From NCBI GenBank assembly GCA_020184695.1, contig JAANOX010000092.1, positions 1 to 13,813 on the forward strand: DNA of 13,813 nt, written 5' to 3'. Shown here in pieces: positions 1 to 13,813 of the stretch. Under the pieces are notes generated by a model. The model searched no databases, was not told the DNA's origin, and was given only the letters and a program-made list of their open reading frames with translations. Made by a program: the position numbers and the translations under genes. The DNA comes from Histomonas meleagridis 2922-C6/04-290x (taxonomy: Eukaryota > Protista > Parabasalia). How positions within the stretch are numbered: position 1 is the stretch's first letter; every line of letters starts with the position of its first letter.

Positions 1-1
1 G

Positions 2-581
2 GAAAAATATACTTATATAACACCTAAAAAAATGAATAAATTTATAAATACTTATAATAATAGTTATCATTCTGCAATGAATTGTTCTCCTAATGAAATG
101 TTTAATTATAAAGACTTAGAAAAAAAGTATATTTAGGTGTTTAAAATTGATCGATAAACAACAAAAAATTAAAGATTTAATTATACCAGTAGGTTCTTAT
201 GTTAGATATATATTACCACGGCATGACGGTATACATAAAAAACGTTATCAAATTAGCAGAGAAATGTACAAAATAGATGACCGTAAAGGACATATGTATA
301 CATTAATTGCTAAAGATGGTTGCGTAATAACGAAGCCTAGACATCAATTAATTATAGTGAAAAATAAAGCTGAACATAAATATAAGTTAAATACTATACC
401 TAATAGATGGAATGGTTCTATAGAAAAGATATTATCATATGATAAAGCTAAAAATAAATATACTGTATTATTTAAAGTTCCGGGTAGTAAACCTTATAAA
501 GACATTATACCAGCAAGTTATTTACGTGGAAATACTTATCAAAAAATAAGTGATATTGAAAAAGAATTCTTTAAAAAATAA
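2..581 (+). pseudogene. Retroviral-type (rve) integrase, C-terminal part, frameshifted near 128-136
   Basis: Frame 2 reads ...INTYNNSYHSAMNCSPNEMFNYKDLEKKYI* (YNxxxHSxxxxSP is the typical end of the rve core). It stops at TAG 134-136, and frame 3 continues FRCLKLIDKQQKIKDLIIPVGSYVRY... Restoring a TA in AAGTATATTTAGG joins them (KYIFRC). Tail has an SH3-like segment (VGSYVRY...YKI...GHMYTL) and a chromo-like segment (IEKILSYDKAKNKYTVLF). Confidence 0.8.
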
Positions 582-627
582 GTGAGCCAAAGTGAGTTAT
601 GAGTCAGTAATGATTGAGTAATGAGTA
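582..627. repeat. Short TGAG(T) motif cluster directly after the integrase stop
   Basis: TGAG at 583, 593, 600, 615, 622 (four of them TGAGT) within 46 bp. Confidence 0.4.
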
Positions 628-681
628 TATATGATAATAAATTGATGTAAATTAATCATATTTTTGTTCAAAGTTTACTAT

Positions 682-922
682 TACGATGAATTTAATTAAA
701 ACTCTTGTATGTCCTCAATGTCCACGATGTCCTGGATAGTCCATGGACAGTAACATTCTCCTAAAACTTACCCGCAACACGCAACTACGCAACAATACAT
801 ATATCCTAACAGTAGATGTTGTTATATGCTTTTTGCTAACAATTTCTATAATAAGACCTTTATAAAGGACATAGTCGACTATTTTGTCGGACAAAAATAA
901 CTATATATATTGTTTATATGGC
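682..922 (+). repeat. Inverted repeat copy A (modular, origin/promoter-like)
   Basis: Matches the reverse complement of 2767-3004 in blocks: 707-748 vs 2936-2977 (38/42), 761-796 vs 2888-2923 (34/36), 830-854 vs 2833-2857 (25/25), 859-874 vs 2811-2826 (16/16). Also TACGATGA at the outer edge and ATGGCG at the inner edge. Confidence 0.92.
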
Positions 923-925
923 GCT

Positions 926-2832
926 TTAATTATCACATATTAATTCATAATTACTGACTTCAACATCATTATCGGACTCTGTTTAGTGATATATAGTCTT
1001 GTACTCATCCTTTAATAAATAATACCAACGCCTATCACCAGTGGACTCACGTTTTCTAATACATTTATCTTTCAATTGTAGTTGAACAGACCTTGTTTTA
1101 ATCTCATAAGATTTATAACTTAAAGCGTCACTACATACCCAACTTTTACATAACGCATAATAATGATCACATATAAATTGTTCTACAGGGTTTTTAAAAG
1201 CTTCTATTAAGTCTTGTTTAGCTTCTGTCATAGGTATGATTCTTGAATTAAAATTACTAATATCTCTTTGTATAAAATATGTTAATAAAAATGACTATAA
1301 AACTCTGAAGTAAAACTGTTATATAGAGTATTCCAATAATCATGATTGTCCTTATATTTGCCATTACATAATAATACAACATATCTTCTATCACCAGACT
1401 CAATTTTAACATAATAACTATTATAAGTAATAAATATTAAATTAGCAACGTTTTCAGAAGTTCTTCTAGGTTGATTTTTCTCATTAATTCTGATAATTTT
1501 GTCAGTAATAATTGATTTTAACGTGTCAAAGTTAGCCAACCTGTCTTCACCAGCGTTCTTTAATTCATTGAGAACTAATAACATCTTACTTTCAATAACA
1601 CTGTTGAAGTTACCTGTTAACTCACCTATTTGATTAATGTTATTTTCACTATAACCGCTTAATAGCTCACATATAACGTCTGTAAAGGTGTTCTTACCTA
1701 TTCCTTGTAAACCTTTTAATACAATAGCTGTTTCAGTCTTTTTGCCAGGATTTTTGATTATGTAAGATATCCAGTTTAATATATAGTTATATATATAATC
1801 ATTGTTATCGGCAATTACTTCATGAATAAGACTTAAGTATTGAGATATTATATCTATGTTTATATTATCAACAGTGCTGTATTTATAACATTGAAACAAA
1901 GAGAATATATTTTTGTTATTTTTACTATAGAATTTAACACCTTTGATAGTTAATTTAGATTGATAATTAATGATAGCATCATATGCTGTTATATACTTAT
2001 TACCATCTTTCCAAAGTTTAATCATTTTGAGCGATTTATTCATAGTAGATTCTGTTAATAATAATATTTTATATTTATTATTATGAATATCAAATGTCTT
2101 CTGAATAAACATTAAGTTATGACTTTCTATAAATCTAATCACTTTGCTTAGATCTTAAACGATATCCTTATAACATTTATATATGTGGTTTTCAGCTTTC
2201 TCACGTATATTTGTCATAGTAAAGTTATCATTAAGGTCTATGTTATGTATTATACCTTCATCAGCACTACCTTTAATATATGTATTATAATAGTCTTCAT
2301 TATAGAGTTTAATTATTTTAATTAAAACTCCGTAATGAGTTTGTAAATGCATATATCTCTCTTTAGCATTATAAAAGTTAGATTTAGCATTAGGCGTTAA
2401 GTTACAATTATTATATATAAAGTCATATGCTTCATTTATTACTTCATTAGGCAAACTGTTAATAGCGTGAAATAGTGGAAATAGTGTTATTTCTTTTGAT
2501 AATAGCATATAACCAGCATCATTATGTATTTCAAGACCTTCTAAACCGTACATTAATGTTCTAGCAAAACCGACAGTGATATTGTCAGAGTTATTATACA
2601 TTATAATTATATTTTGAACTTCCTGTGATTGTTCTATAGTTATTTTTATATCTAAATCCTTTAATATATCATTAACATTTCTGATAATAATACTGTCATA
2701 ATTACCTCTAATAAATTCATATGTTGAAATAGATAATTTATGTGATGAATCTCTATATTTTGAACCCGCCATTACAATTAATGAACGTTTATTTTCATCG
2801 TATTGTCCGTCTATGTCCTTTATAAAAGGGTA
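926..2832 (-). pseudogene. Primase-associated domain + SF3 (D5/NrS-1/DUF5906-like) helicase; one gene split into three track ORFs
   Basis: ORFs 2155-2772 and 1282-2142 are in frame, separated by one TAA (DIV*DLSKVIRF). ORF 983-1231 joins via a frameshift in the A-run near 1287-1290 (...SH|LLTYFIQRDISNFNSRIIPMTEAKQDL). Walker A GLQGIGKN, Walker B LLVLNE, motif C region NLIFITYN, arginine finger DRRY. Frame stays open upstream of the ATG to 2832 (YPFIKDIDGQYDENKRSLIV-MAGSKY) and past the TAA at 983-985 for 18 acidic codons to 926. Confidence 0.85.
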
Positions 2833-3004
2833 TTATTATAGAAATTGTTAGCAAAAAACACACCAATACTATTATTATTGTTGCTAAATTGTTGCGCAGT
2901 TGCGTGTTGCGGGTAAGCTTTAGACGAAGTTGTTCGTCCTAGGACTATCCAGGACATCCAGGACATTGAGGACATACTATAATAATAGCTTAAATCATCG
3001 TATT
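2767..3004 (-). repeat. Inverted repeat copy B, overlapping the 5' end of the helicase gene
   Basis: Reverse-complement match to 682-922. GGAC at 2942, 2952, 2961, 2970; palindrome GTCCTAGGAC 2936-2945; hairpin GACGAA-GTTG-TTCGTC 2923-2938; three GTTGCG units at 2891-2911. Confidence 0.92.
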
Positions 3005-3046
3005 TATTGAGATATTCATATTTTATTGCTGATTCGATATATTTTT

Positions 3047-3258
3047 ATATATTGATTAGTTTATACAAAAGTGTCATTATTAACGGTCAACTTATATGAT
3101 GTATTTGTACATAATATTACTCATATTTAAATAATTAATATATTGATTAGTTTATACAAAAGTGTCATGTTATATGAAAAATAACCGTTAACAGACTTGT
3201 TATATGAAAAATAACCGTTAACAGACGTGTTATATGAATAATAACCGATGACACTTTT
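3047..3258. repeat. Intergenic repeat cluster: 31-bp direct repeat, 30-bp tandem repeat, 11-bp inverted repeat
   Basis: ATATATTGATTAGTTTATACAAAAGTGTCAT identical at 3047-3077 and 3138-3168. Unit TGTTATATGAAAAATAACCGTTAACAGAC(T/G) about 2.7 times at 3168-3247. AAAAGTGTCAT (3158-3168) is inverted at 3248-3258. Confidence 0.92.
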
Positions 3259-3287
3259 TAATGTAAACATCACAAAAATATATAAAA

Positions 3288-6200
3288 TTAACTTATAAAT
3301 ACAGATACTGTATGATTATTTATTACAGCTGTAATTTTACCAATAATCATACTGTTTATTTTTGTTGTTAATACAGTATCATCATCTAAAATACTGCCGT
3401 CAAATAATATTATATCGCCAACAGAATATTTACTAGAATCATTAACGTTAAAATAATAATCTCCGTGAGTAGCAAAATCTATAGTATCTTGATTAATACT
3501 AATATCTTGTTTTATAGTATCTCCTATTTGAAAAACACTGTTAGCAATATGTTTATCAACACATATTCCTATAAATTCTTTATAAGAACCTGTACTTTTA
3601 ACAGAAGGTATACAATTAGTAGAATCTGTAGTAGAAATATACTTATTAACATCATTTTCATTAACTAATTTATAAACATCACCTGTTATAAATACTGGTT
3701 TTCCAATAGTAAAATTATCGATATTTTCATTTTCAGAAATAGGACTGTTATGTATAATTGTTTTATTAATTTGACCTCCTCCTGAACTGCTAATAATTGC
3801 TTTTCATCTACCTGTGTTTTTAATACAGCATTTTGATAAGGAACTATATCACTTGGTTCATGAGTATGACTCGTTAATGCTAAATTATTTAAGTTAATTC
3901 CGTTAACAGTATTACAATTTATATTACCGTTACTGTTAAAAGTAATTGATCCAGAACCGTTTCTTTTAAACTCTAATGAATCAGTAGATGTTATTCTCCA
4001 AGAGTAATCACTGTTAAATTCATTATTATCATGAAAATCTATATAACAACCTACTTCCATAACACCATCACTTTTAATAGTAGCTATACAAGGCAATGTG
4101 TTTAAATAATTTCCTGCTGAAGAACCGTTATTCAAATAATAATTATTAATTTTACCGTTAACAGTTAAGTCGTTATTTATAGTATTATGAGTATGATTTA
4201 TTAAAGAATATTTATCATCATGATTATGACTTGTTAAAGAGAAGTTATCAACAGGTATATTATTAATATAATTTACTTCTAAATTACCATATATTTTTAA
4301 ATCGTTATTTATAGTGTTGTGAGTATGATTTATTAAAGATATGTTATCAGTGTCAATATCATTAATATAATTACAATTTATATTTCCGTTAACAGTTAAA
4401 TTATTATTAACAGTTAAATTATTATTAAATTCTGTATGAGTATGATTTTTTAAAGAAATGTTATCAGTATCAATATCATTAATATAAGTACAACTAATGC
4501 TTCCGTTAACAGTTAAATTATTATCAATTGTGTTGTGAGTATGATTTATTAAAGAATATTTATCGTCATGATTATGATCTATTAAAGCATATTTTTCATC
4601 ATGATTATGAGAACTTGGCGGAAAAGTTGTTGGTTTATCAGTAATATCATTATAACTATGAGTATGATTTATTAATGAATATTTATCGTCATGATTATGT
4701 GTTGTTAATGAAATATTATTAGTATTAATACCGTTAATAGAATTACAACTAATATTACCGTTTTTATATATACTTACGTAATTACCGTCACAAGTTTTAA
4801 ATCTTAAACAAGTATCAATATTATCATCAGAACCTACGTAATGTTCTATTATACTACAATCATCGCCATATGGTAATACACCTATTTCCATTCTGATAGA
4901 ATTACCTGTTACTGCATTAGATCTATAAATGAATAATCCTTGATAAATATTTGTATCATCTGGATATTTGCTGCAATCAATATTGATATTACGTTTTGAT
5001 GTTAATATTCTGCAGGAAATATCATTATCTACTAATAAATCTTGTTCAACCTTTGTCCAAACGCCGTATTCATTATATGATATTCCTGTTAAAGCCTTAT
5101 TTATATCAGTTAAATTATCATTAGTTAAATACTGATCATGAGTATGATTTATTAATGAAAAATTATCAACAGGTATATTGTTAACAGAATTAACTTCTAT
5201 ATTACCATTAACTTTTAAATCTTGATTTATATCAGTATATATTTCATAAACATCTTCTTCCTCAGTAGTTTCTATATAATCTTTATTAAAAGTAATTCCT
5301 GTTAACTTATTGTTAATATTAAATATATCATTACTAATTATTGATAATTCATCTAAATCAATGCCGTTAATAAAATTACATTCTATATCACCATTTATTT
5401 TTAAATCTTGATTAATATTAGTATATATTTCATAAATATCCTCTTCCTCCTCTTCTTCATTAATAATTGTTTCTAATAAATCCTTATGATAAGTAATTCC
5501 TGTATAATTATTTAAATCAGAGCTTATTAAGTATTGATCATGAGTATGATTTATAAAACGTTTATATATCTGACAGTCAACTAATAACATACCTAATTCA
5601 TTAGTTCTCTGTCCTTTAGAAACATCTTTATAATAATATTTTAAGTTCTTAAATATAGTATTCATTTCAGGAAACAGATTTATTAAATAATTATATTCAT
5701 TAAAACTATTATCGATATCAGTATCATCAGGACCTTCTAAATCATCTAAATTTTCATCTGTTGATATATCATATTCATCAAAAACTACTGATCTTACTGT
5801 AGGTATAGGTATATAACCCCTGGCTCCTGTAACCACATTCTTTAATCTGCTAATTAACGACATAGCCCAAGAACTGTTTTTAATACTGTTATATACTTTA
5901 CTTGCCAGTTCAGCAAATTCAGCTAATGACATAGCAAAAGAAAAGGCATCTAATAAGTATTCTAGCCAGTTCTTCTTATATCCTTCACCATCTTCTCCAG
6001 GAGCACCTGTTAATAATTCTTGTATCTCATCATCATCTATAATCATTTGTTTTGTTAAATAATATTCTGATGTTAATACTCCATCAACATTAACTATCCC
6101 ATAAGTATGTCCACTGTCTTCTAACATAATACTATTACCGTTTGGAAAATTAATTAATAAATTGTTTTCAGTAATTCCTTCATCGGTGATATTATCGTAA

Positions 6201-7324
6201 GTTGATATATTAACACCATTCTCAAATAATATTACATCAGAAATAGTTAAAATACCGTCTTCAATAAGTGCTATATTATTAGTATCAATTTCGTTGATTT
6301 TACCGTTAACTATAAGATCTTGATTAATTAATGTATATTTTTCATAAATATCCTCCTCTTCCTCCTCATTAGTTTCTAATAATTCTTCGTTATAATAAAT
6401 ACCAGTTAATTTATTATTAATATTATCTAAATTAGCACTTGTTAAATAATCACTATGTATATGATCTATTAATGAATATCTATCATCATGGTTATGTGTT
6501 GTTAAAGAAAAACTGTCAACAGATGTATTATTTATAGAATTACATTGAATATTGCCGTTATTATTAAAAATAATTGTTTTACCGCCTTTTGCTTGAAAAC
6601 TTAATGTATCAGTTATAGCTCTAATCCTCCAAGTATTATCTTTATTATAATCATCTCTATAATGAAAATCAATGTATTCTCCTACTTCCATAACGCCGTC
6701 TGTTTTAACAGTAGCTATACAAGGAATTGTTATTGTTGAATTAGATCCTCCTCCAGCACTGTTTAAAATATAATAATCATTAATTTTACCGTTAACAGTT
6801 AAATCATTGTTAAAAATGTTATGAGTATGATCTATTAAAGCATATTTGTTATCATGATTATGATCTATTAAAGAATATTTGTTATCATGATTATGATCTT
6901 TTAAAGCGAAATCTTCTGTAGAATAACCGTTAATAGTATCTATTAAAAGATTACTTATACTGACGTTATTATTATCTTCATTAATTTTAACAAATTCTTT
7001 GTATAAATCTAATACTTTATCAATATCACTAAACATTTGTTTTAAATAAGCATTATTCATAATATTGGATCCTGTAATAATATCACTTACTAATATATCA
7101 TTTATTAAAGTAATGTTTTTAATACTGTTATCTAAAGGATTAATTATTATATGATTTCTTCCGTATGTAAATATAAATGATTTATCTAAACTGTTAATTG
7201 TTAATGAACAAATTCCGTTTGAAATAGTATCTGCTGTTTTACTGTGATTAGAATATATTACACTGTTTTTATTTAATAATGATTTTACTATATTTTCTAA
7301 TATTTCGTATTGTTGAAGTGTCAT
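3288..7324 (-). pseudogene. Large virion fibre/appendage protein (about 1345 aa if repaired), frameshift at T-run 3801-3804
   Basis: 17 H-x-H motifs, repeated DLxVNGxIxCNxINxI beta-shaft units, HTHSYNDITDKPTTFPPSSHNH, two GVMEVGxYIDFH modules. Adding one A to GATGAAAAGCA opens about 172 further codons (KAIISSSGGGQINKT...FATHGDYYFNV...IIGKITAVINNHTVSVFIS*) ending at 3288. Confidence 0.78.
6827..6899 (-). repeat. 33-bp coding tandem repeat (DHNHDNKYxLI) in the fibre gene
   Basis: 6827-6859 and 6860-6892 are 32/33 identical, plus a partial third copy. Confidence 0.9.
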
Positions 7325-7363: not shown

Positions 7364-8143
7364 ATGTTAAGTGAAACACAACTTAATTATCGAGTGTCTG
7401 AATTATCCATAGAAGAAAATAATACTAATTTAGATATAGAAGAATATGAAAGAGATTTAACGTATGTAAATAAAAATGTTGGTTATACATTTAGATATCC
7501 ACAACGTTGGTTAGAATCTCCTAGTCAGAATAAAGTAGTTGGAATAAGAAGACTTGATATAATACCTACTTCTCACGTAATTTCATTAAAATGTGTTGCA
7601 AAAATTGATGATGAAGAACAAATAAAAACTATTGTTAATATTCAAATTATTAGTAATAATACTTTGCTGGAAATAATTACTTATTTAATCAATTCTCTTA
7701 ATAATGCATTTACTACTAATGATCCCGGTTTTGAATACTTATATAATGAAAAAGGAGAACTTATGATTAATTGTGATTATGAATTCAAATTTGTTGATCC
7801 TATTAATGGCGCATATGACAACAATATAAATAATTTCTTAATATTCTTAAATCAAGATACTACAGATGATAATTATAGTATATTAAATAATTTGATTAAT
7901 GATAAATCCTCTACTAATGTTTGGAATAAAGTATATTTTAAATTCCGTGCATCATTCAGTGATAGTAAAAGAAGATTTATTGGTGTTAAAGGTGATTTTT
8001 ATGAAAAACCAACTGTTATATATAATGCACCTTCTGACGGATCTACTTTTAATATACAATTTACATCTGATGGAAAGAATCCTATATATCCTATTCATTG
8101 TAGATTTATTATACAATTAGTATTCATGTATAATTATAAGTAA
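7364..8143 (+). CDS. 259-aa beta-rich protein, possible single-jelly-roll minor capsid (penton) paralog
   Basis: Intact ORF with element-like codon usage. Alternating hydrophobic strands (YTFRYP...VVGIRRLDIIP...FNIQFTSDGKNPIYPIHCRFIIQL) loosely follow the penton pattern. Product call is inference. Confidence 0.45.
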   Translation: MLSETQLNYRVSELSIEENNTNLDIEEYERDLTYVNKNVGYTFRYPQRWLESPSQNKVVGIRRLDIIPTSHVISLKCVAKIDDEEQIKTIVNIQIISNNTLLEIITYLINSLNNAFTTNDPGFEYLYNEKGELMINCDYEFKFVDPINGAYDNNINNFLIFLNQDTTDDNYSILNNLINDKSSTNVWNKVYFKFRASFSDSKRRFIGVKGDFYEKPTVIYNAPSDGSTFNIQFTSDGKNPIYPIHCRFIIQLVFMYNYK

Positions 8144-8184: not shown

Positions 8185-10368
8185 TTATAAATTCATCAAT
8201 GTTTTTATAGGATCTTCACTGTTAATACATTTATTTTTATATTTGTTATTAACATGATATATATATTCATTATTAATATTTTTGCCGATCCAATTATCAG
8301 CAGACTTGATATATATTTCCTTGAATATATGTTCTATCTTAAACTGACCTAATTTATCGCCAATATATCCTAACTCATATAATTTGTTATAATCTTCTTC
8401 AGATATTAATAACAAATCAACTTTAGAATAATATACATTAGATATTAAACTTATAATATGATTCATTTTATCATTAAAATTATTTAATACTGATCTTGCA
8501 AATTGTGGATAAGTAAAGTGTTCTTTATGAGGTTTTATTGTATATACATAGTTATCTTCATCATATTTAATAACATAAGGTGCAAATTCTTCAATATATT
8601 TATCAACGCAGCTTTTGCTGCAACCAGCTTTGCTGGCATTAGTCTTTAATTTTTTATTGAAATTAGGTGGTTTTCTAATAGATGTTCCCCAACAACTATT
8701 CATCATAAATTTTAATGTAGTAGCCAATTTATCATTACCGGAGTTCTTAGCTTTTATTCTTAAGTTATATAATACTTCTATAATTTGCTTTATTTTAGTA
8801 TTTTCTCTATTAAAAGCACCGTTATTATCAGGTTTACCTATAGGTATTGATGTTACAGATGACATATATGCTCCGTTTAAATCTATATAATAATATTTGC
8901 CTGTTAAATGTATTTGTTTCCATATAGTCTTAGGAAATATACATTCACTACGTATTTTATTTGAAATATCACCTGATAACTCATATACATTATTAAAACA
9001 ACCGTATTCATACATTATTTTTAACATTAAATCGCTGTATCTGTGATAAGCCTTTACATTAATATTTGAACCTAAATTATTAAAAATAGGTTGTAATTCA
9101 TTGAATCTGTAGTTAACTTCATTATCAGCAATATTATACCCAAATAATTTCTTACCGTGTTTCATTCTTTTAACAAAATCAGGTATATACTTCTTATCAG
9201 GAATATGTATTAATCTATAACTGTTATAAGGTTTATTAATAGTTTTATAGCTCCAACATAATTTATTATAAGCATTAATATCCATAGGTTTTAATAGATT
9301 ACATTGTTTCATAGTATTAATTAAATAATATATAGATATCGGTCTGGTAGCGTATTCTATTGTTCTATTTTTACTATAATTTTTAATACTTTCAATAGAT
9401 ATATTAACAGTGTCATTAAACATATAATGATCATCTATAATGATTAATTTTATAAGTTTATTATATTGTTTACCGTAATCTCTGTGAGTAAAACCTTTAT
9501 TAGCCATATATCTGACATTAATATGTACTTTTAATAAATCTGATATATTATTTAATTCTGATAACGGAACTGTTCTAGTATTTATAAAAGATCTTAACAT
9601 ATTAATCTCATTATCATTAAATAAATTACTTGCAATAAATGATTGTATCGAACAAGATTCATTAATATTTTCATTATTGATATTGTTGAAAATACCATAT
9701 TTTGTAAGATCTATATCTGTAGTATTAATCCAAGGAAAGAATCCTGGATTAACTCTTTTACCGTTTTTAAAATTTCTAAACTCAAACTTTATAGATTTGA
9801 TATTTTTAAAGGTTTCTAATGCTAAAGTATTACTGTCACTAATATCATCTTTTTCATTAATAATATTATATATAAAATTAACAGTATTCATATTTCCGTG
9901 GTAATATAATATATTATTATTATCGTCAATAATAGTCATTCTAATATCTTTATTTATTTTAGGACCTGCTGCCTTTATAGTGTACATTAATGATTTTAAC
10001 ATAATATTGTGTTTATTAGAAATCACTGTATGAGTAAAATCTTTCTGAGTCATTAATTTCTTAATTAAATCTTTAGTTATATTGTTAATAGATTTATTAT
10101 TTTTTACAGTTTTCTCTGCAGGTTCATTTTCAGATAATGCTATATTATAATAATCATCAAATGGATCACTATAATTGTATTCACTACGTTTATTGTGTTT
10201 GATTTTATATTGTAATTGATTTACTAATAAATGATCATATTTATTATTCATTTCATCATAAACCTTATATTTGATTTTAGTATTTATATGTTCAAATTTG
10301 TCCGGTAAAGTATAACCGTAATTATTGAACAATTCTATTACTTGTTTTGTTGTTAGCTTCTCTGGCAT
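8185..10368 (-). CDS. Reduced protein-primed-type family B DNA polymerase with OTU-like domain
   Basis: Motif A YIDLNGAYMS (D at 8881-8883), motif B KFMMNSCWG (about 8687-8713), degenerate motif C YYSKVDLL (D at 8416-8418), downstream LGQFKIE. Papain/OTU-like ESC (C239, 9652-9654) ... LIIIDDHY (H314, 9427-9429). No ExoI DxE motif recognised. Confidence 0.75.
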   Translation of the reverse strand: MPEKLTTKQVIELFNNYGYTLPDKFEHINTKIKYKVYDEMNNKYDHLLVNQLQYKIKHNKRSEYNYSDPFDDYYNIALSENEPAEKTVKNNKSINNITKDLIKKLMTQKDFTHTVISNKHNIMLKSLMYTIKAAGPKINKDIRMTIIDDNNNILYYHGNMNTVNFIYNIINEKDDISDSNTLALETFKNIKSIKFEFRNFKNGKRVNPGFFPWINTTDIDLTKYGIFNNINNENINESCSIQSFIASNLFNDNEINMLRSFINTRTVPLSELNNISDLLKVHINVRYMANKGFTHRDYGKQYNKLIKLIIIDDHYMFNDTVNISIESIKNYSKNRTIEYATRPISIYYLINTMKQCNLLKPMDINAYNKLCWSYKTINKPYNSYRLIHIPDKKYIPDFVKRMKHGKKLFGYNIADNEVNYRFNELQPIFNNLGSNINVKAYHRYSDLMLKIMYEYGCFNNVYELSGDISNKIRSECIFPKTIWKQIHLTGKYYYIDLNGAYMSSVTSIPIGKPDNNGAFNRENTKIKQIIEVLYNLRIKAKNSGNDKLATTLKFMMNSCWGTSIRKPPNFNKKLKTNASKAGCSKSCVDKYIEEFAPYVIKYDEDNYVYTIKPHKEHFTYPQFARSVLNNFNDKMNHIISLISNVYYSKVDLLLISEEDYNKLYELGYIGDKLGQFKIEHIFKEIYIKSADNWIGKNINNEYIYHVNNKYKNKCINSEDPIKTLMNL
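8608..8637. repeat. 30-bp GC-rich double-hairpin insert, in frame in PolB
   Basis: GCAGC-TTTT-GCTGC AA CCAGC-TTT-GCTGG C; 17/30 GC; encodes ASKAGCSKSC. Confidence 0.8.
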
Positions 10369-11279: not shown

Positions 11280-12182
11280 TTGAATATTATAAGAAATAAA
11301 GATAATAAATTTAAAGAAATTGATGAAAACTTTAATAGAATAAGTAGAATGAATAAAGAAGTATTAGATAATGCTTCAATTAAACCTATACATGAAAAAT
11401 ATCCCTCAGCACAGAATGGAATATGTGCTTTTATAGCTCCAATGGGCAGTGGTAAGAGCTATACTTATATAAAATTATCTGTCTATCAAGAAGTATTATT
11501 TGATGAACCTTTTTTTGAATTGATAGTTATATGTTCTACTAGTAGTAAGTCTGATTAAACAGTAAATGACTTTAAAATATTAATTAAAAAGAGTAAACTT
11601 GTTGCTATAAAGGATACTGATTTATTGGATTATTTAAATAAATATATGAGACGTATTTTGAAATATAATTCTATTATAAAATATGCTAACAGTAATTTTA
11701 AAGAAATCAATGAAGAATTAACAAGGATAATAAATAAACATAAGTTAATTATTCGAAATGATGATAACAAAAAACTATTAAAATATATATCATTGAAATT
11801 ATTTAAATATAATTGGAAAACATATCCTCACAGAATGTTATTAATATTAGATGATTTTGCAAACCATGCATTAATAAAGAATAAAGAAACAGATTTAATG
11901 AGGTTATTAAAGAAATTAAAACATTTCAATATTAATGTAATTATTTGTGTACAAACAGTAAAATCTATATCAAAAGATTTGAAAAGAACATTATCTGATA
12001 TAGTATTGTTTCCATGTATCTCTAGAGATGATTTTTATGAACTTATTAAAGAATCTCCAGCAAGTTGTTTTGATGTAGATAAGTTATGGAATGAGTATAG
12101 TAAAATTAAAGATCAACATAGTAGATTTAACATATGGATAAAAGCCAGAAGAGTTACTATAACGTTGAGTAATGTCAAATAA
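11280..12182 (+). pseudogene. A32-like (FtsK/HerA family) genome-packaging ATPase with one internal TAA
   Basis: ORFs 11280-11558 and 11625-12182 are in frame across TAA 11556-11558 (STSSKSD*TVNDFK...). Walker A APMGSGKS, Walker B LLILDDFA, KKLKHFNINVIICVQT (A32 RH..Q motif, here KH). Track start is TTG. Confidence 0.85.
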
Positions 12183-12681: not shown

Positions 12682-13813
12682 TTCTTCAAAAAAATCTTCA
12701 CTTTTTCAATAAATGAGTTTGGAATTATAGTTAAATTATTCCCTGAACATAAAGCAATTGATATTAATGCTAAAGCATGTATTTGTTTAATTTAAGTCTT
12801 GTTTTAATATTATAATATTTCAAAATAAAATTTGGAAATTATTTAAAATATTTAGTACAGCACTTATATTGATGAAAAATTTGTAAAAATAATATATTTA
12901 AGATTTTTAGTTTTTTTATTTTTTAATTATTCTCGATTTTTTACATTTCAAATGATGATGAGCACAAAATTATATTTTTTTTATACAAATTTTTCTATGT
13001 TGTGAAAGATACAGTTCGAATGATTCATCGCATCTAAAAGATTTAAAGAATTTGATTTATAATCATTAAAAATTTTATTTAAAAATTAATGAATCAGCAA
13101 ATTTCGAACATATTATATCACACATATAAGGAAATATTGATACAATGAATAAAGGCAACGCTTCAATAATATCAGCTTCATTTTGATGATCTTGAATCGA
13201 ATTAGTTAAACACATTATAATCGATGATACAAAACTATCATTAAACATTTCCCGATTATTTTGTGATGGTTGGAGATTAAGGAAAAATGGAGTAATAATA
13301 TAATTTGATTAGAGTTAAGTCAAATTAATAAATTCATAAAAGATTTATTAATAATTTGGATCCTATCATTAAATATATCCAAAAATAAGAACATTAAATT
13401 TCGATCTGCATAATTTTTGATATATTTTAGAAAGAATTCAGGATGAGATTTTTATAGAAAGTTTCATTATAACCTGATCGTGTAATGAAACTGATTTTAA
13501 ACAATTAATGACACTTTCTATGCGTAGAGAAATTATAACAAATAAAAATGGCATTATCAAAGATAAACACATTTCACTTGCATCAGGAGAAAAAGAAGAA
13601 AGCTTAGTCGGCAGTCGGATGCTGGTTAACTCCTTAACATACTTGTCACTTATGATTTTCCCAATGATTTTTATTGATAATTTTTATATTTTTCAAAATA
13701 CTTCGTAAAATGAATATCCACAATAATAGCATTTGCTTTCATCATTTGTTTTGTATTGTAAAAAATATTTTGTTGAATTTATTTGGTAATGGAATCTAAT
13801 AAACTAAGATATA
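12678..13813 (-). pseudogene. Probable host flank containing degraded minus-strand coding remnants (helical protein)
   Basis: Several stop-free minus-strand stretches: KLSIKIIGK...KISS (about 13441-13683), ITPFFLNLQ...DSLIFK (about 13077-13296), KQIHALALISIALCSG...IFLKN* (ending 12678). They are separated by stops and shifts. No viral motif recognised. Confidence 0.3.

What the first reader, a model, noticed from the sequence alone, without database searches (positions are those of the whole stretch)
682..3004. Helicase gene bracketed by ~240-bp modular inverted repeats inside the virus
Seen: 682-922 and the reverse complement of 2767-3004 share four near-identical blocks (38/42, 34/36, 25/25, 16/16) separated by diverged spacers. 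They enclose exactly one gene, the primase-associated/SF3 helicase. Polinton inverted repeats are normally terminal; these are internal. Conserved blocks with free spacers suggest selection on a cis-element. Inference: an origin-flanked replication module that could invert, excise or be swapped, or a captured mini-replicon nested in the PLV.
Basis: partly seen in the sequence, partly recalled or inferred. Interest (0 to 1): 0.8.

Follow-up and report, generated by a model that had tools for sequence, protein, structure and literature searches.

The report
Facing Maverick ends around dead helicase
The inverted repeats are real, but they are two copies of a ~200-bp module found many times in this protist genome, likely the ends of two neighbouring Maverick virus-like elements, and the gene between them is a broken remnant, so this is likely pile-up debris rather than a mobile replication cassette.

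Summary
The inverted repeat is real: arms 682-893 and 2804-3002 align at 75-79% in five exact blocks of 15-25 nt, more clustered than uniform decay gives. The enclosed gene is not intact. It is a primase-polymerase/SF3-helicase remnant that lacks the first ~143 codons (the conserved prim-pol D-x-D, H and D residues) and has two in-frame stops and a frameshift. The break lies at arm B's inner edge. Contigs of the holder runs show the arm as a dispersed multi-copy module. Its sharp edge faces inward (2801-2804), sister copies continue there into AT-rich non-helicase DNA, and the arm-helicase junction is at single-copy depth. A B-like arm also follows the integrase in a sister copy. No target-site duplication flanks the outer ends, and no inverted or excised cassette was listed. 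Best reading (0.55): terminal repeats of two Maverick copies facing each other across an older helicase gene, as in the nested and concatenated Mavericks of Trichomonas. The partner repeats were not seen, so this is inferred. The conserved iterated motifs are a plausible protein-binding cis-element. A mobile replicase cassette stays possible at about 0.1.

The parts
1..581 (+). C-terminal half of an rve (c-)integrase gene, frameshifted near 135
   Evidence: Relatives of 377-387 aa at up to 83% identity, 4 of 8 with PF00665; first piece 36/44 identical to P0187
682..893 (+). Arm A: outer TACGATGA, ATGTCC iterons (9-bp period), CGCAAC x3, 25-nt block, inner GGACA motifs; likely terminal repeat of the integrase-side Maverick copy with its end facing right
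   Evidence: sister copies with the same outer flank; terminal role inferred
871..896 (.). Two short palindromes (12 and 15 bp) at the inner end of arm A, absent from arm B
   Evidence: Read from the sequence
926..2802 (-). Remnant of an AEP primase-polymerase / SF3 (D5, NrS-1-like) helicase gene: first ~143 codons missing, stops at 2155-2157 and 983-985, frameshift near 1285
   Evidence: 79% identity to P0004 from residue ~144; DUF5906 E 1.7e-19; missing part is the prim-pol fold; stop at 2155-2157 covered without difference by contigs of three runs
2795..2804 (+). 10-bp sequence TCATCGTATT at the helicase/arm B junction, repeated 200 bp away at 2995-3004; unexplained
2804..3002 (-). Arm B: second copy of the module; sharp inner edge at 2801-2804 cuts the helicase gene; likely terminal repeat of the fibre-side Maverick copy
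   Evidence: depth step and loose ends; terminal role inferred
3044..3247 (+). Local direct repeats (34 bp twice; 30-bp unit x2.7) between arm B and the fibre-like gene
3288..7324 (-). Large tail-repeat / fibre-like gene, frameshifted near 3800
   Evidence: PHROG tail-fibre hit E 3e-4
8185..10368 (-). Open 727-aa ORF, likely protein-primed DNA polymerase B
   Evidence: 50 unnamed relatives plus one PF03175 protein at E 4e-9; no direct Pfam hit
11349..12182 (+). Packaging-type P-loop ATPase with one in-frame stop
   Evidence: PHROG 2666 E 5.8e-6; 52% identical to the ATPase upstream of the helicase in L081

Best explanation
The two arms are copies of a multi-copy ~200-bp module, likely the terminal inverted repeats of two different Maverick/Polinton copies whose ends face each other, and the helicase between them is a dead remnant that the fibre-side copy likely cut when it inserted or was fused into it. 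Shown: arms, block pattern, multi-copy state, inward sharp edge, truncation at that edge, pseudogene state. Inferred: the left copy ends integrase-then-arm A, the right copy begins arm B-then-fibre gene; the integrase would join element ends into AT-rich DNA, including older Maverick genes; the iterated TGTCC and CGCAAC blocks would be binding sites for end-acting proteins (integrase, terminal-protein/PolB initiation or a host factor), which would keep blocks conserved between subfamilies while spacers drift.
For: Summed contig depth in X2, X3 and X4 is 0 at 2772-2791 and rises at 2802-2811 to 11188, 40 and 45, against 529, 4.7 and 6.0 at 3022-3042 (summed depth is no copy number). Loose ends before 2801/2804 are AT-rich and not helicase in all four runs (7 of the 24 rows shown, of 57). 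The contig bridging helicase and arm B has single-copy depth (X1, 2772-2857, 789). Homology to full-length relatives starts at residue ~144, at that edge; 97 of 120 relatives align from the first 50 residues of P0004. A sister contig joins the integrase end (560) to an arm placed on B rather than A, so B-like arms occur beside both integrase and fibre gene, as a repeat at both ends would. In T. vaginalis class 3 Mavericks the order ends PolB, integrase, tail-repeat, S1, TIR with the primase internal; TIRs are 100-900 bp, class 2 TIRs begin with poly-A/T, and elements are concatenated or nested (PMC12289875).
Against: The partner repeats and any target-site duplication were not seen: no third arm lies in the window, although 12950-13813 looks non-viral (no Pfam hit in six frames), and the missing helicase N-terminus is not in the window. 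Sister copies share 7-19 AT-rich bases beyond TGTCC, so the exact terminus is not fixed. No gene occurs twice in the window, which also fits one rearranged element. The helicase's probable native stop (926-928) lies only ~30 bp from arm A, which suits a native neighbour. Contig tables give no orientation or intervening letters for the joints. No contig listed from X2 or X4 covers the junction.
Confidence: 0.55

Rival explanations
1. The arm is an internal intergenic module (origin or promoter/terminator block) that normally sits between integrase and helicase 3' ends; arm B came from a second copy fused head-to-head by a deletion that destroyed the helicase 5' end.
For: Arm A lies ~100 bp after the integrase stop and ~30 bp from the helicase's probable native stop; integrase-arm linkage recurs in a sister; inward-facing TGTCC/GGACA iterons resemble iteron origins of primase-helicases (recalled); L081 has an iterated repeat tract of other sequence upstream of its helicase.
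Against: Inner flanks of sister arms differ from each other and none is joined to a helicase 3' end among the 15 of 26 joints shown; depth at 841-980 is only 2-3 times single-copy.
Confidence: 0.22
2. The arm is a small non-autonomous mobile unit (MITE-like or solo end) with imperfect TGTCC...GGACA ends that inserted twice, once beside and once into the helicase gene.
For: Varied flanks on both sides and many diverged variants; the core begins with TGTCC and ends with GGACA; a 10-bp direct repeat flanks arm B.
Against: The missing helicase 5' part is not beyond arm B; the outer TCATCGTA motif is kept in three variants with different spacers, which random targets would not give; arm A has no matching duplication.
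Confidence: 0.1
3. One reading: arms plus helicase form a replicase cassette that can invert, excise or be exchanged; this copy is a decayed example.
For: Both inner ends abut the helicase coding sequence; repeats bracketing replicases in polisuviruses are reported (10.64898/2026.10.13.758929) and primase-less helicases flanked by repeats occur in entomopoxvirus TIRs (PMC11296320). One contig at about twice single-copy depth links a TGTCC block (732) to the inner end of B (2804), and long loose ends at 2804 are not helicase.
Against: Gene lacks the conserved prim-pol residues and carries 10 changes in 148 conserved columns against 1-5 in 183-184 for its six closest relatives; outer ends fade gradually with no target duplication; arms only 75-79% identical; junction at single-copy depth; no inverted-repeat bracket in the 7 closest of 159 loci; no recombinase family hit among 11 proteins.
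Confidence: 0.1
4. Assembly chimera of collapsed repeats.
For: Region is highly repeated; no listed contig spans the whole stretch.
Against: Short-read contigs bridge helicase-arm B without difference (X1, 2772-2857) and arm A-helicase (X2, 857-1086); X1 may be the source sample.
Confidence: 0.03

Closest known systems
Trichomonas vaginalis Mavericks (TvMav1-3; PMC12289875, passages and supplement 1 part 1 read)
   Same: c-integrase, PolB, A32-type ATPase, primase/D5 gene, tail-repeat protein; TIRs of 100-900 bp; concatenated and nested copies; helicase relative in T. vaginalis at 59% with a 198-member cluster annotated partly as prim-pol
   Different: Different gene order; PolB-like ORF had no named T. 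vaginalis relative among 51 hits; TvMav TIR sequences could not be compared; no capsid gene identified here
Repeat-bracketed replicases and tandem elements of Polisuviricotina (10.64898/2026.10.13.758929; abstract and section 13 read)
   Same: AEP-SF3 gene between repeats in an element that also has pPolB; tandem integration and deletion across neighbours
   Different: Here the gene is cut at the repeat, the repeat is a dispersed genome-wide module, and its sharp edge faces inward
Mobile D5-like helicases in entomopoxvirus TIRs and PLV end modules (PMC11296320; passages and section 9 part 1 read)
   Same: Primase-less SF3 helicase next to inverted repeats; repeats proposed as origin and integration substrate
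   Different: No tyrosine recombinase or T5orf172/GIY-YIG hit here; truncation is unique to this copy as far as the contigs show
NrS-1, ASFV PrimPol, SaPI5 PriRep and poxvirus D5 primase-helicases; pRN1 prim-pol
   Same: Model of full-length relative P0004: residues 349-738 match NrS-1 C-terminal region (Z 26.0, rmsd 4.6, 365 aligned); 29-198 match archaeal prim-pol 3m1m (Z 10.0, rmsd 3.4, 147 aligned)
   Different: The window copy lacks residues 1-143 of that fold and is broken

Membership tests
Maverick/Polinton | rve-type integrase | tested here: met
   (C-terminal half, frameshifted)
Maverick/Polinton | Protein-primed PolB | tested here: inconclusive
   727-aa ORF with DLNGAY and MNSCWG motifs; one PF03175 relative at E 4e-9; no direct Pfam or PHROG hit
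Maverick/Polinton | Packaging ATPase | tested here: met
   one in-frame stop
Maverick/Polinton | Major and minor capsid genes | tested here: inconclusive
   No capsid family hit for the ORFs scanned; ORFs at 7364 and 10612 were not folded
Maverick/Polinton | Paired near-identical TIRs at both ends with a 5-6-bp target duplication (recalled) | not testable with these tools
   No genome held; partner ends outside the window
Maverick TIR (role of the arms) | Multi-copy, one sharp edge with varied flanks | tested here: met
   depth step at 2801-2804, at least four different AT-rich flanks
Maverick TIR (role of the arms) | Canonical 5'-AG...CT-3' termini (recalled) | tested here: inconclusive
   Edge reads TGTCC at 2804, with 7-19 shared AT-rich bases beyond it in sisters; true terminus not fixed
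AEP primase-polymerase/SF3 helicase | SF3/D5-like helicase domain with Walker A | tested here: met
   GLQGIGKN; DUF5906; NrS-1 match
AEP primase-polymerase/SF3 helicase | N-terminal prim-pol domain with D-x-D, H and D residues | tested here: not met
   D73, D75, D136, D138 in 32 of 32 and H111 in 31 of 32 relatives; all lie in the part missing from the window
Mobile or invertible cassette | Sharp outer ends with target duplication | tested here: not met
   Outer depth fades over 2982-3022; no direct repeat outside 682 and 3002
Mobile or invertible cassette | Inverted, excised or empty forms | tested here: inconclusive
   None clear in 15 of 26 joints shown; the 732-to-2804 joint has unknown letters between; only contigs were available

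The most novel reading that the evidence does not exclude
The arms are iteron origins for the AEP-SF3 replicase and bracket a replicase module that moves between parabasalid Mavericks or invades their end-to-end junctions; this locus is a dead example and the helicase-free 732-to-2804 contig is its empty site.
Probability: 0.1. Interest if true: 0.6.

Novelty: new member of a known kind. Interest (0 to 1): 0.25.

Why it matters
If the best reading holds, this is ordinary nesting or tandem pile-up of Mavericks, as described in Trichomonas, in a lineage for which two paper searches listed no Maverick description. The useful by-product is a ~200-bp end module whose blocks stay conserved between subfamilies: candidate binding sites for Maverick end-acting proteins. 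If the less likely cassette reading held, it would be direct support for the proposed autonomous movement of AEP-SF3 replicases.

Tried and rejected
Whole-genome search: no genome held. Genetic code 6: tested and rejected, since long ORFs end in TAA and stops coincide with frameshifts. Arm motifs in viral contigs: 0 matches for two patterns. A 20-mer in prokaryote genomes: 6 loci, 20-24-nt matches only, taken as chance. Arms against 159 helicase loci: best E 0.084. PolB alignment in viral contigs: 0 of 186 stretches confirmed. Single-strand folding of either arm: z -1.4 and -1.5, no notable structure. Single-sequence model of the N-terminal domain: pLDDT 50, not used. No RNA holder listed. Zero depth at 2772-2791 in X2-X4 is not read as absence of the junction. 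PolB decay test uninformative (10 of 179 against 11 of 187 in the closest relative). Earlier findings: nothing in four look-ups. Protein atlas unavailable. One Polinton paper not held; PMC13735942 has no Maverick passage; PMC10120064 and PMC2836005 read as passages only. bioRxiv supplements and paper figures could not be seen and may show closer precedents.

Full report
Observation. The inverted repeat is present. blastn aligns 682-877 with 2808-3002 at 78.9% (E 5.6e-39), and the local score of 256 compares with a maximum of 54 in 500 shuffles. Extending to the last GGACA gives arms 682-893 and 2804-3002, with 161 of 215 columns identical and exact runs of 17, 17, 20, 25 and 15 nt. Uniform divergence reached that clustering in 1.1% of 3000 simulations and in 0 of 238 with matched identity. 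Each arm carries an outer TACGATGA, ATGTCC units at 9-bp spacing, three CGCAAC units, a 25-nt block and inner GGACA motifs. Neither arm folds better than shuffles.

Context. The window is a decayed Maverick-type region. It holds the C-terminal half of an rve integrase, a tail-repeat gene, a likely protein-primed PolB and a packaging ATPase. Named relatives of the helicase come from Histomonas (67%), Trichomonas vaginalis (59%), Monocercomonoides and Streblomastix, so the host is likely a metamonad gut protist (inference). Code 6 was tested and rejected.

The enclosed gene. The closest relatives are about 740-780 aa. A model of relative P0004 (pLDDT 84.9) has a prim-pol fold at 29-198 (3m1m, Z 10.0) and an NrS-1/D5-like helicase at 349-738 (Z 26.0). 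The window copy is 79% identical to P0004 but starts at residue ~144. D73, D75, H111, D136 and D138, conserved in 31-32 of 32 relatives, are missing, and that part is found nowhere in the window. Of 120 relatives of 484 aa or more, 97 align from the first 50 residues, and 1 (P0071) starts near residue 140. The copy also has stops at 2155-2157 and 983-985 and a frameshift near 1285; the first stop is covered without difference by contigs of three runs. It changes 10 of 148 conserved columns, against 1-5 of 183-184 in its six closest relatives. It cannot be a working replicase.

The arms in the rest of the genome. No genome was held, so I laid contigs of the four best holder runs, which are two samples of one study and may include the source. 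Over arm B, summed depth is 10-75 times the level at 3022-3042 in the conserved blocks; this is not a copy number, but it shows many copies. The step is on the inner side: X2, X3 and X4 go from 0 at 2772-2791 to 11188, 40 and 45 at 2802-2811. Seven of the 24 loose-end rows shown (57 in all) lie before 2801 or 2804 and are AT-rich, non-helicase and of at least four kinds. The contig across the helicase-arm B junction has single-copy depth in X1. On the outer side depth fades over 40 bp, A-type flanks occur in other copies, and TCATCGTA is kept in three variants. Support for the cassette is also lacking: none of the 15 of 26 joints shown is a clear inversion or excision. Two rows are ambiguous. 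The joint 732 to 2804, at about twice single-copy depth, links a TGTCC block to a B-type inner end, and long loose ends at 2804 are not helicase; the letters between are unknown. The joint 478 to 859 puts an arm beside the middle of an integrase gene, orientation unknown.

Related loci. The arms have no match in 159 helicase loci (best E 0.084), and none of the 7 closest loci, which are short (1.6-6.7 kb), has inverted repeats around the helicase. In L081 a shorter helicase follows the ATPase directly, so the gene is an ordinary member of such elements.

Mechanism. I favour two Maverick ends facing each other (0.55). The left copy would end integrase then arm A. The right copy would begin arm B then fibre gene, and its end cut an older helicase gene at codon ~143. 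This explains the inward edge, the varied flanks, the 75-79% identity (different subfamilies), the B-like arm beside an integrase and the exact truncation. It fits T. vaginalis, where integrase and tail-repeat genes lie near a TIR in class 3, the primase is internal, and Mavericks are concatenated or nested (PMC12289875). Against it, no partner repeat or target duplication was seen, the window may reach non-viral DNA near 12950 without a third arm, sisters share 7-19 AT-rich bases beyond the edge, no gene is duplicated, and the helicase's probable native stop lies ~30 bp from arm A. These points keep an internal origin-like module with head-to-head fusion at 0.22, a MITE-like unit at 0.10, a mobile cassette at 0.10 and an assembly chimera at 0.03. 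What the blocks bind is untested.

Known comparisons and novelty. Repeats bracketing replicases, and tandem integration with deletion, are already described for these viruses (10.64898/2026.10.13.758929), as are primase-less helicases beside inverted repeats (PMC11296320). Searches listed no description of this repeat or of Mavericks in the closest named genus; subscription papers and figures were not visible. Verdict: new member of a known kind, interest 0.25.

Noticed in passing
window 2795-2804 and 2995-3004: The same 10-mer flanks arm B at exactly 200 bp. The inner copy is helicase coding (YDE) and the outer is the arm's conserved motif; not explained by any model.
   Followed up: partly
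loose end before 2804 in X1, X2, X4: A sister flank forms an 8-bp-stem hairpin directly outside the arm, nearly symmetric, as a junction of two facing ends would be.
   Followed up: partly
joint 456 to 3334: A sister contig links the integrase C-terminal region with the 3' end of the fibre-like gene on opposite strands, suggesting another gene order.
   Followed up: no
L081 855-1079: Tract of iterated ACAAATT units bounded by a 33-bp inverted repeat upstream of a 499-aa helicase that lacks the prim-pol part; origin-like, unrelated in sequence to the arms.
   Followed up: partly
L081-L085: Related elements carry 470-510-aa helicases that begin near residue 320 of P0004 with their own start codon, a natural primase-less form.
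   Followed up: no
window 8185-10368: PolB-like protein family of 50 unnamed relatives at 33-76% with no Pfam hit; intact ORF in an otherwise broken element.
   Followed up: partly
window 3686-7324: 1212-aa ORF built of repeated H-x-H-D units and acidic tracts, tail-fibre-like, with a frameshifted C-terminus.
   Followed up: no
L165 2942-3200 and 7570-8199: Clostridial locus with many GGGGACAGGCACC-type palindromic repeats beside an ORF that looks like a REP-associated tyrosine transposase (recalled motif); shares one 20-mer with the arms, taken as chance.
   Followed up: partly
window 12950-13813: Stop-rich region with no Pfam hit in six frames; may be host DNA beyond a truncated element end.
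   Followed up: partly
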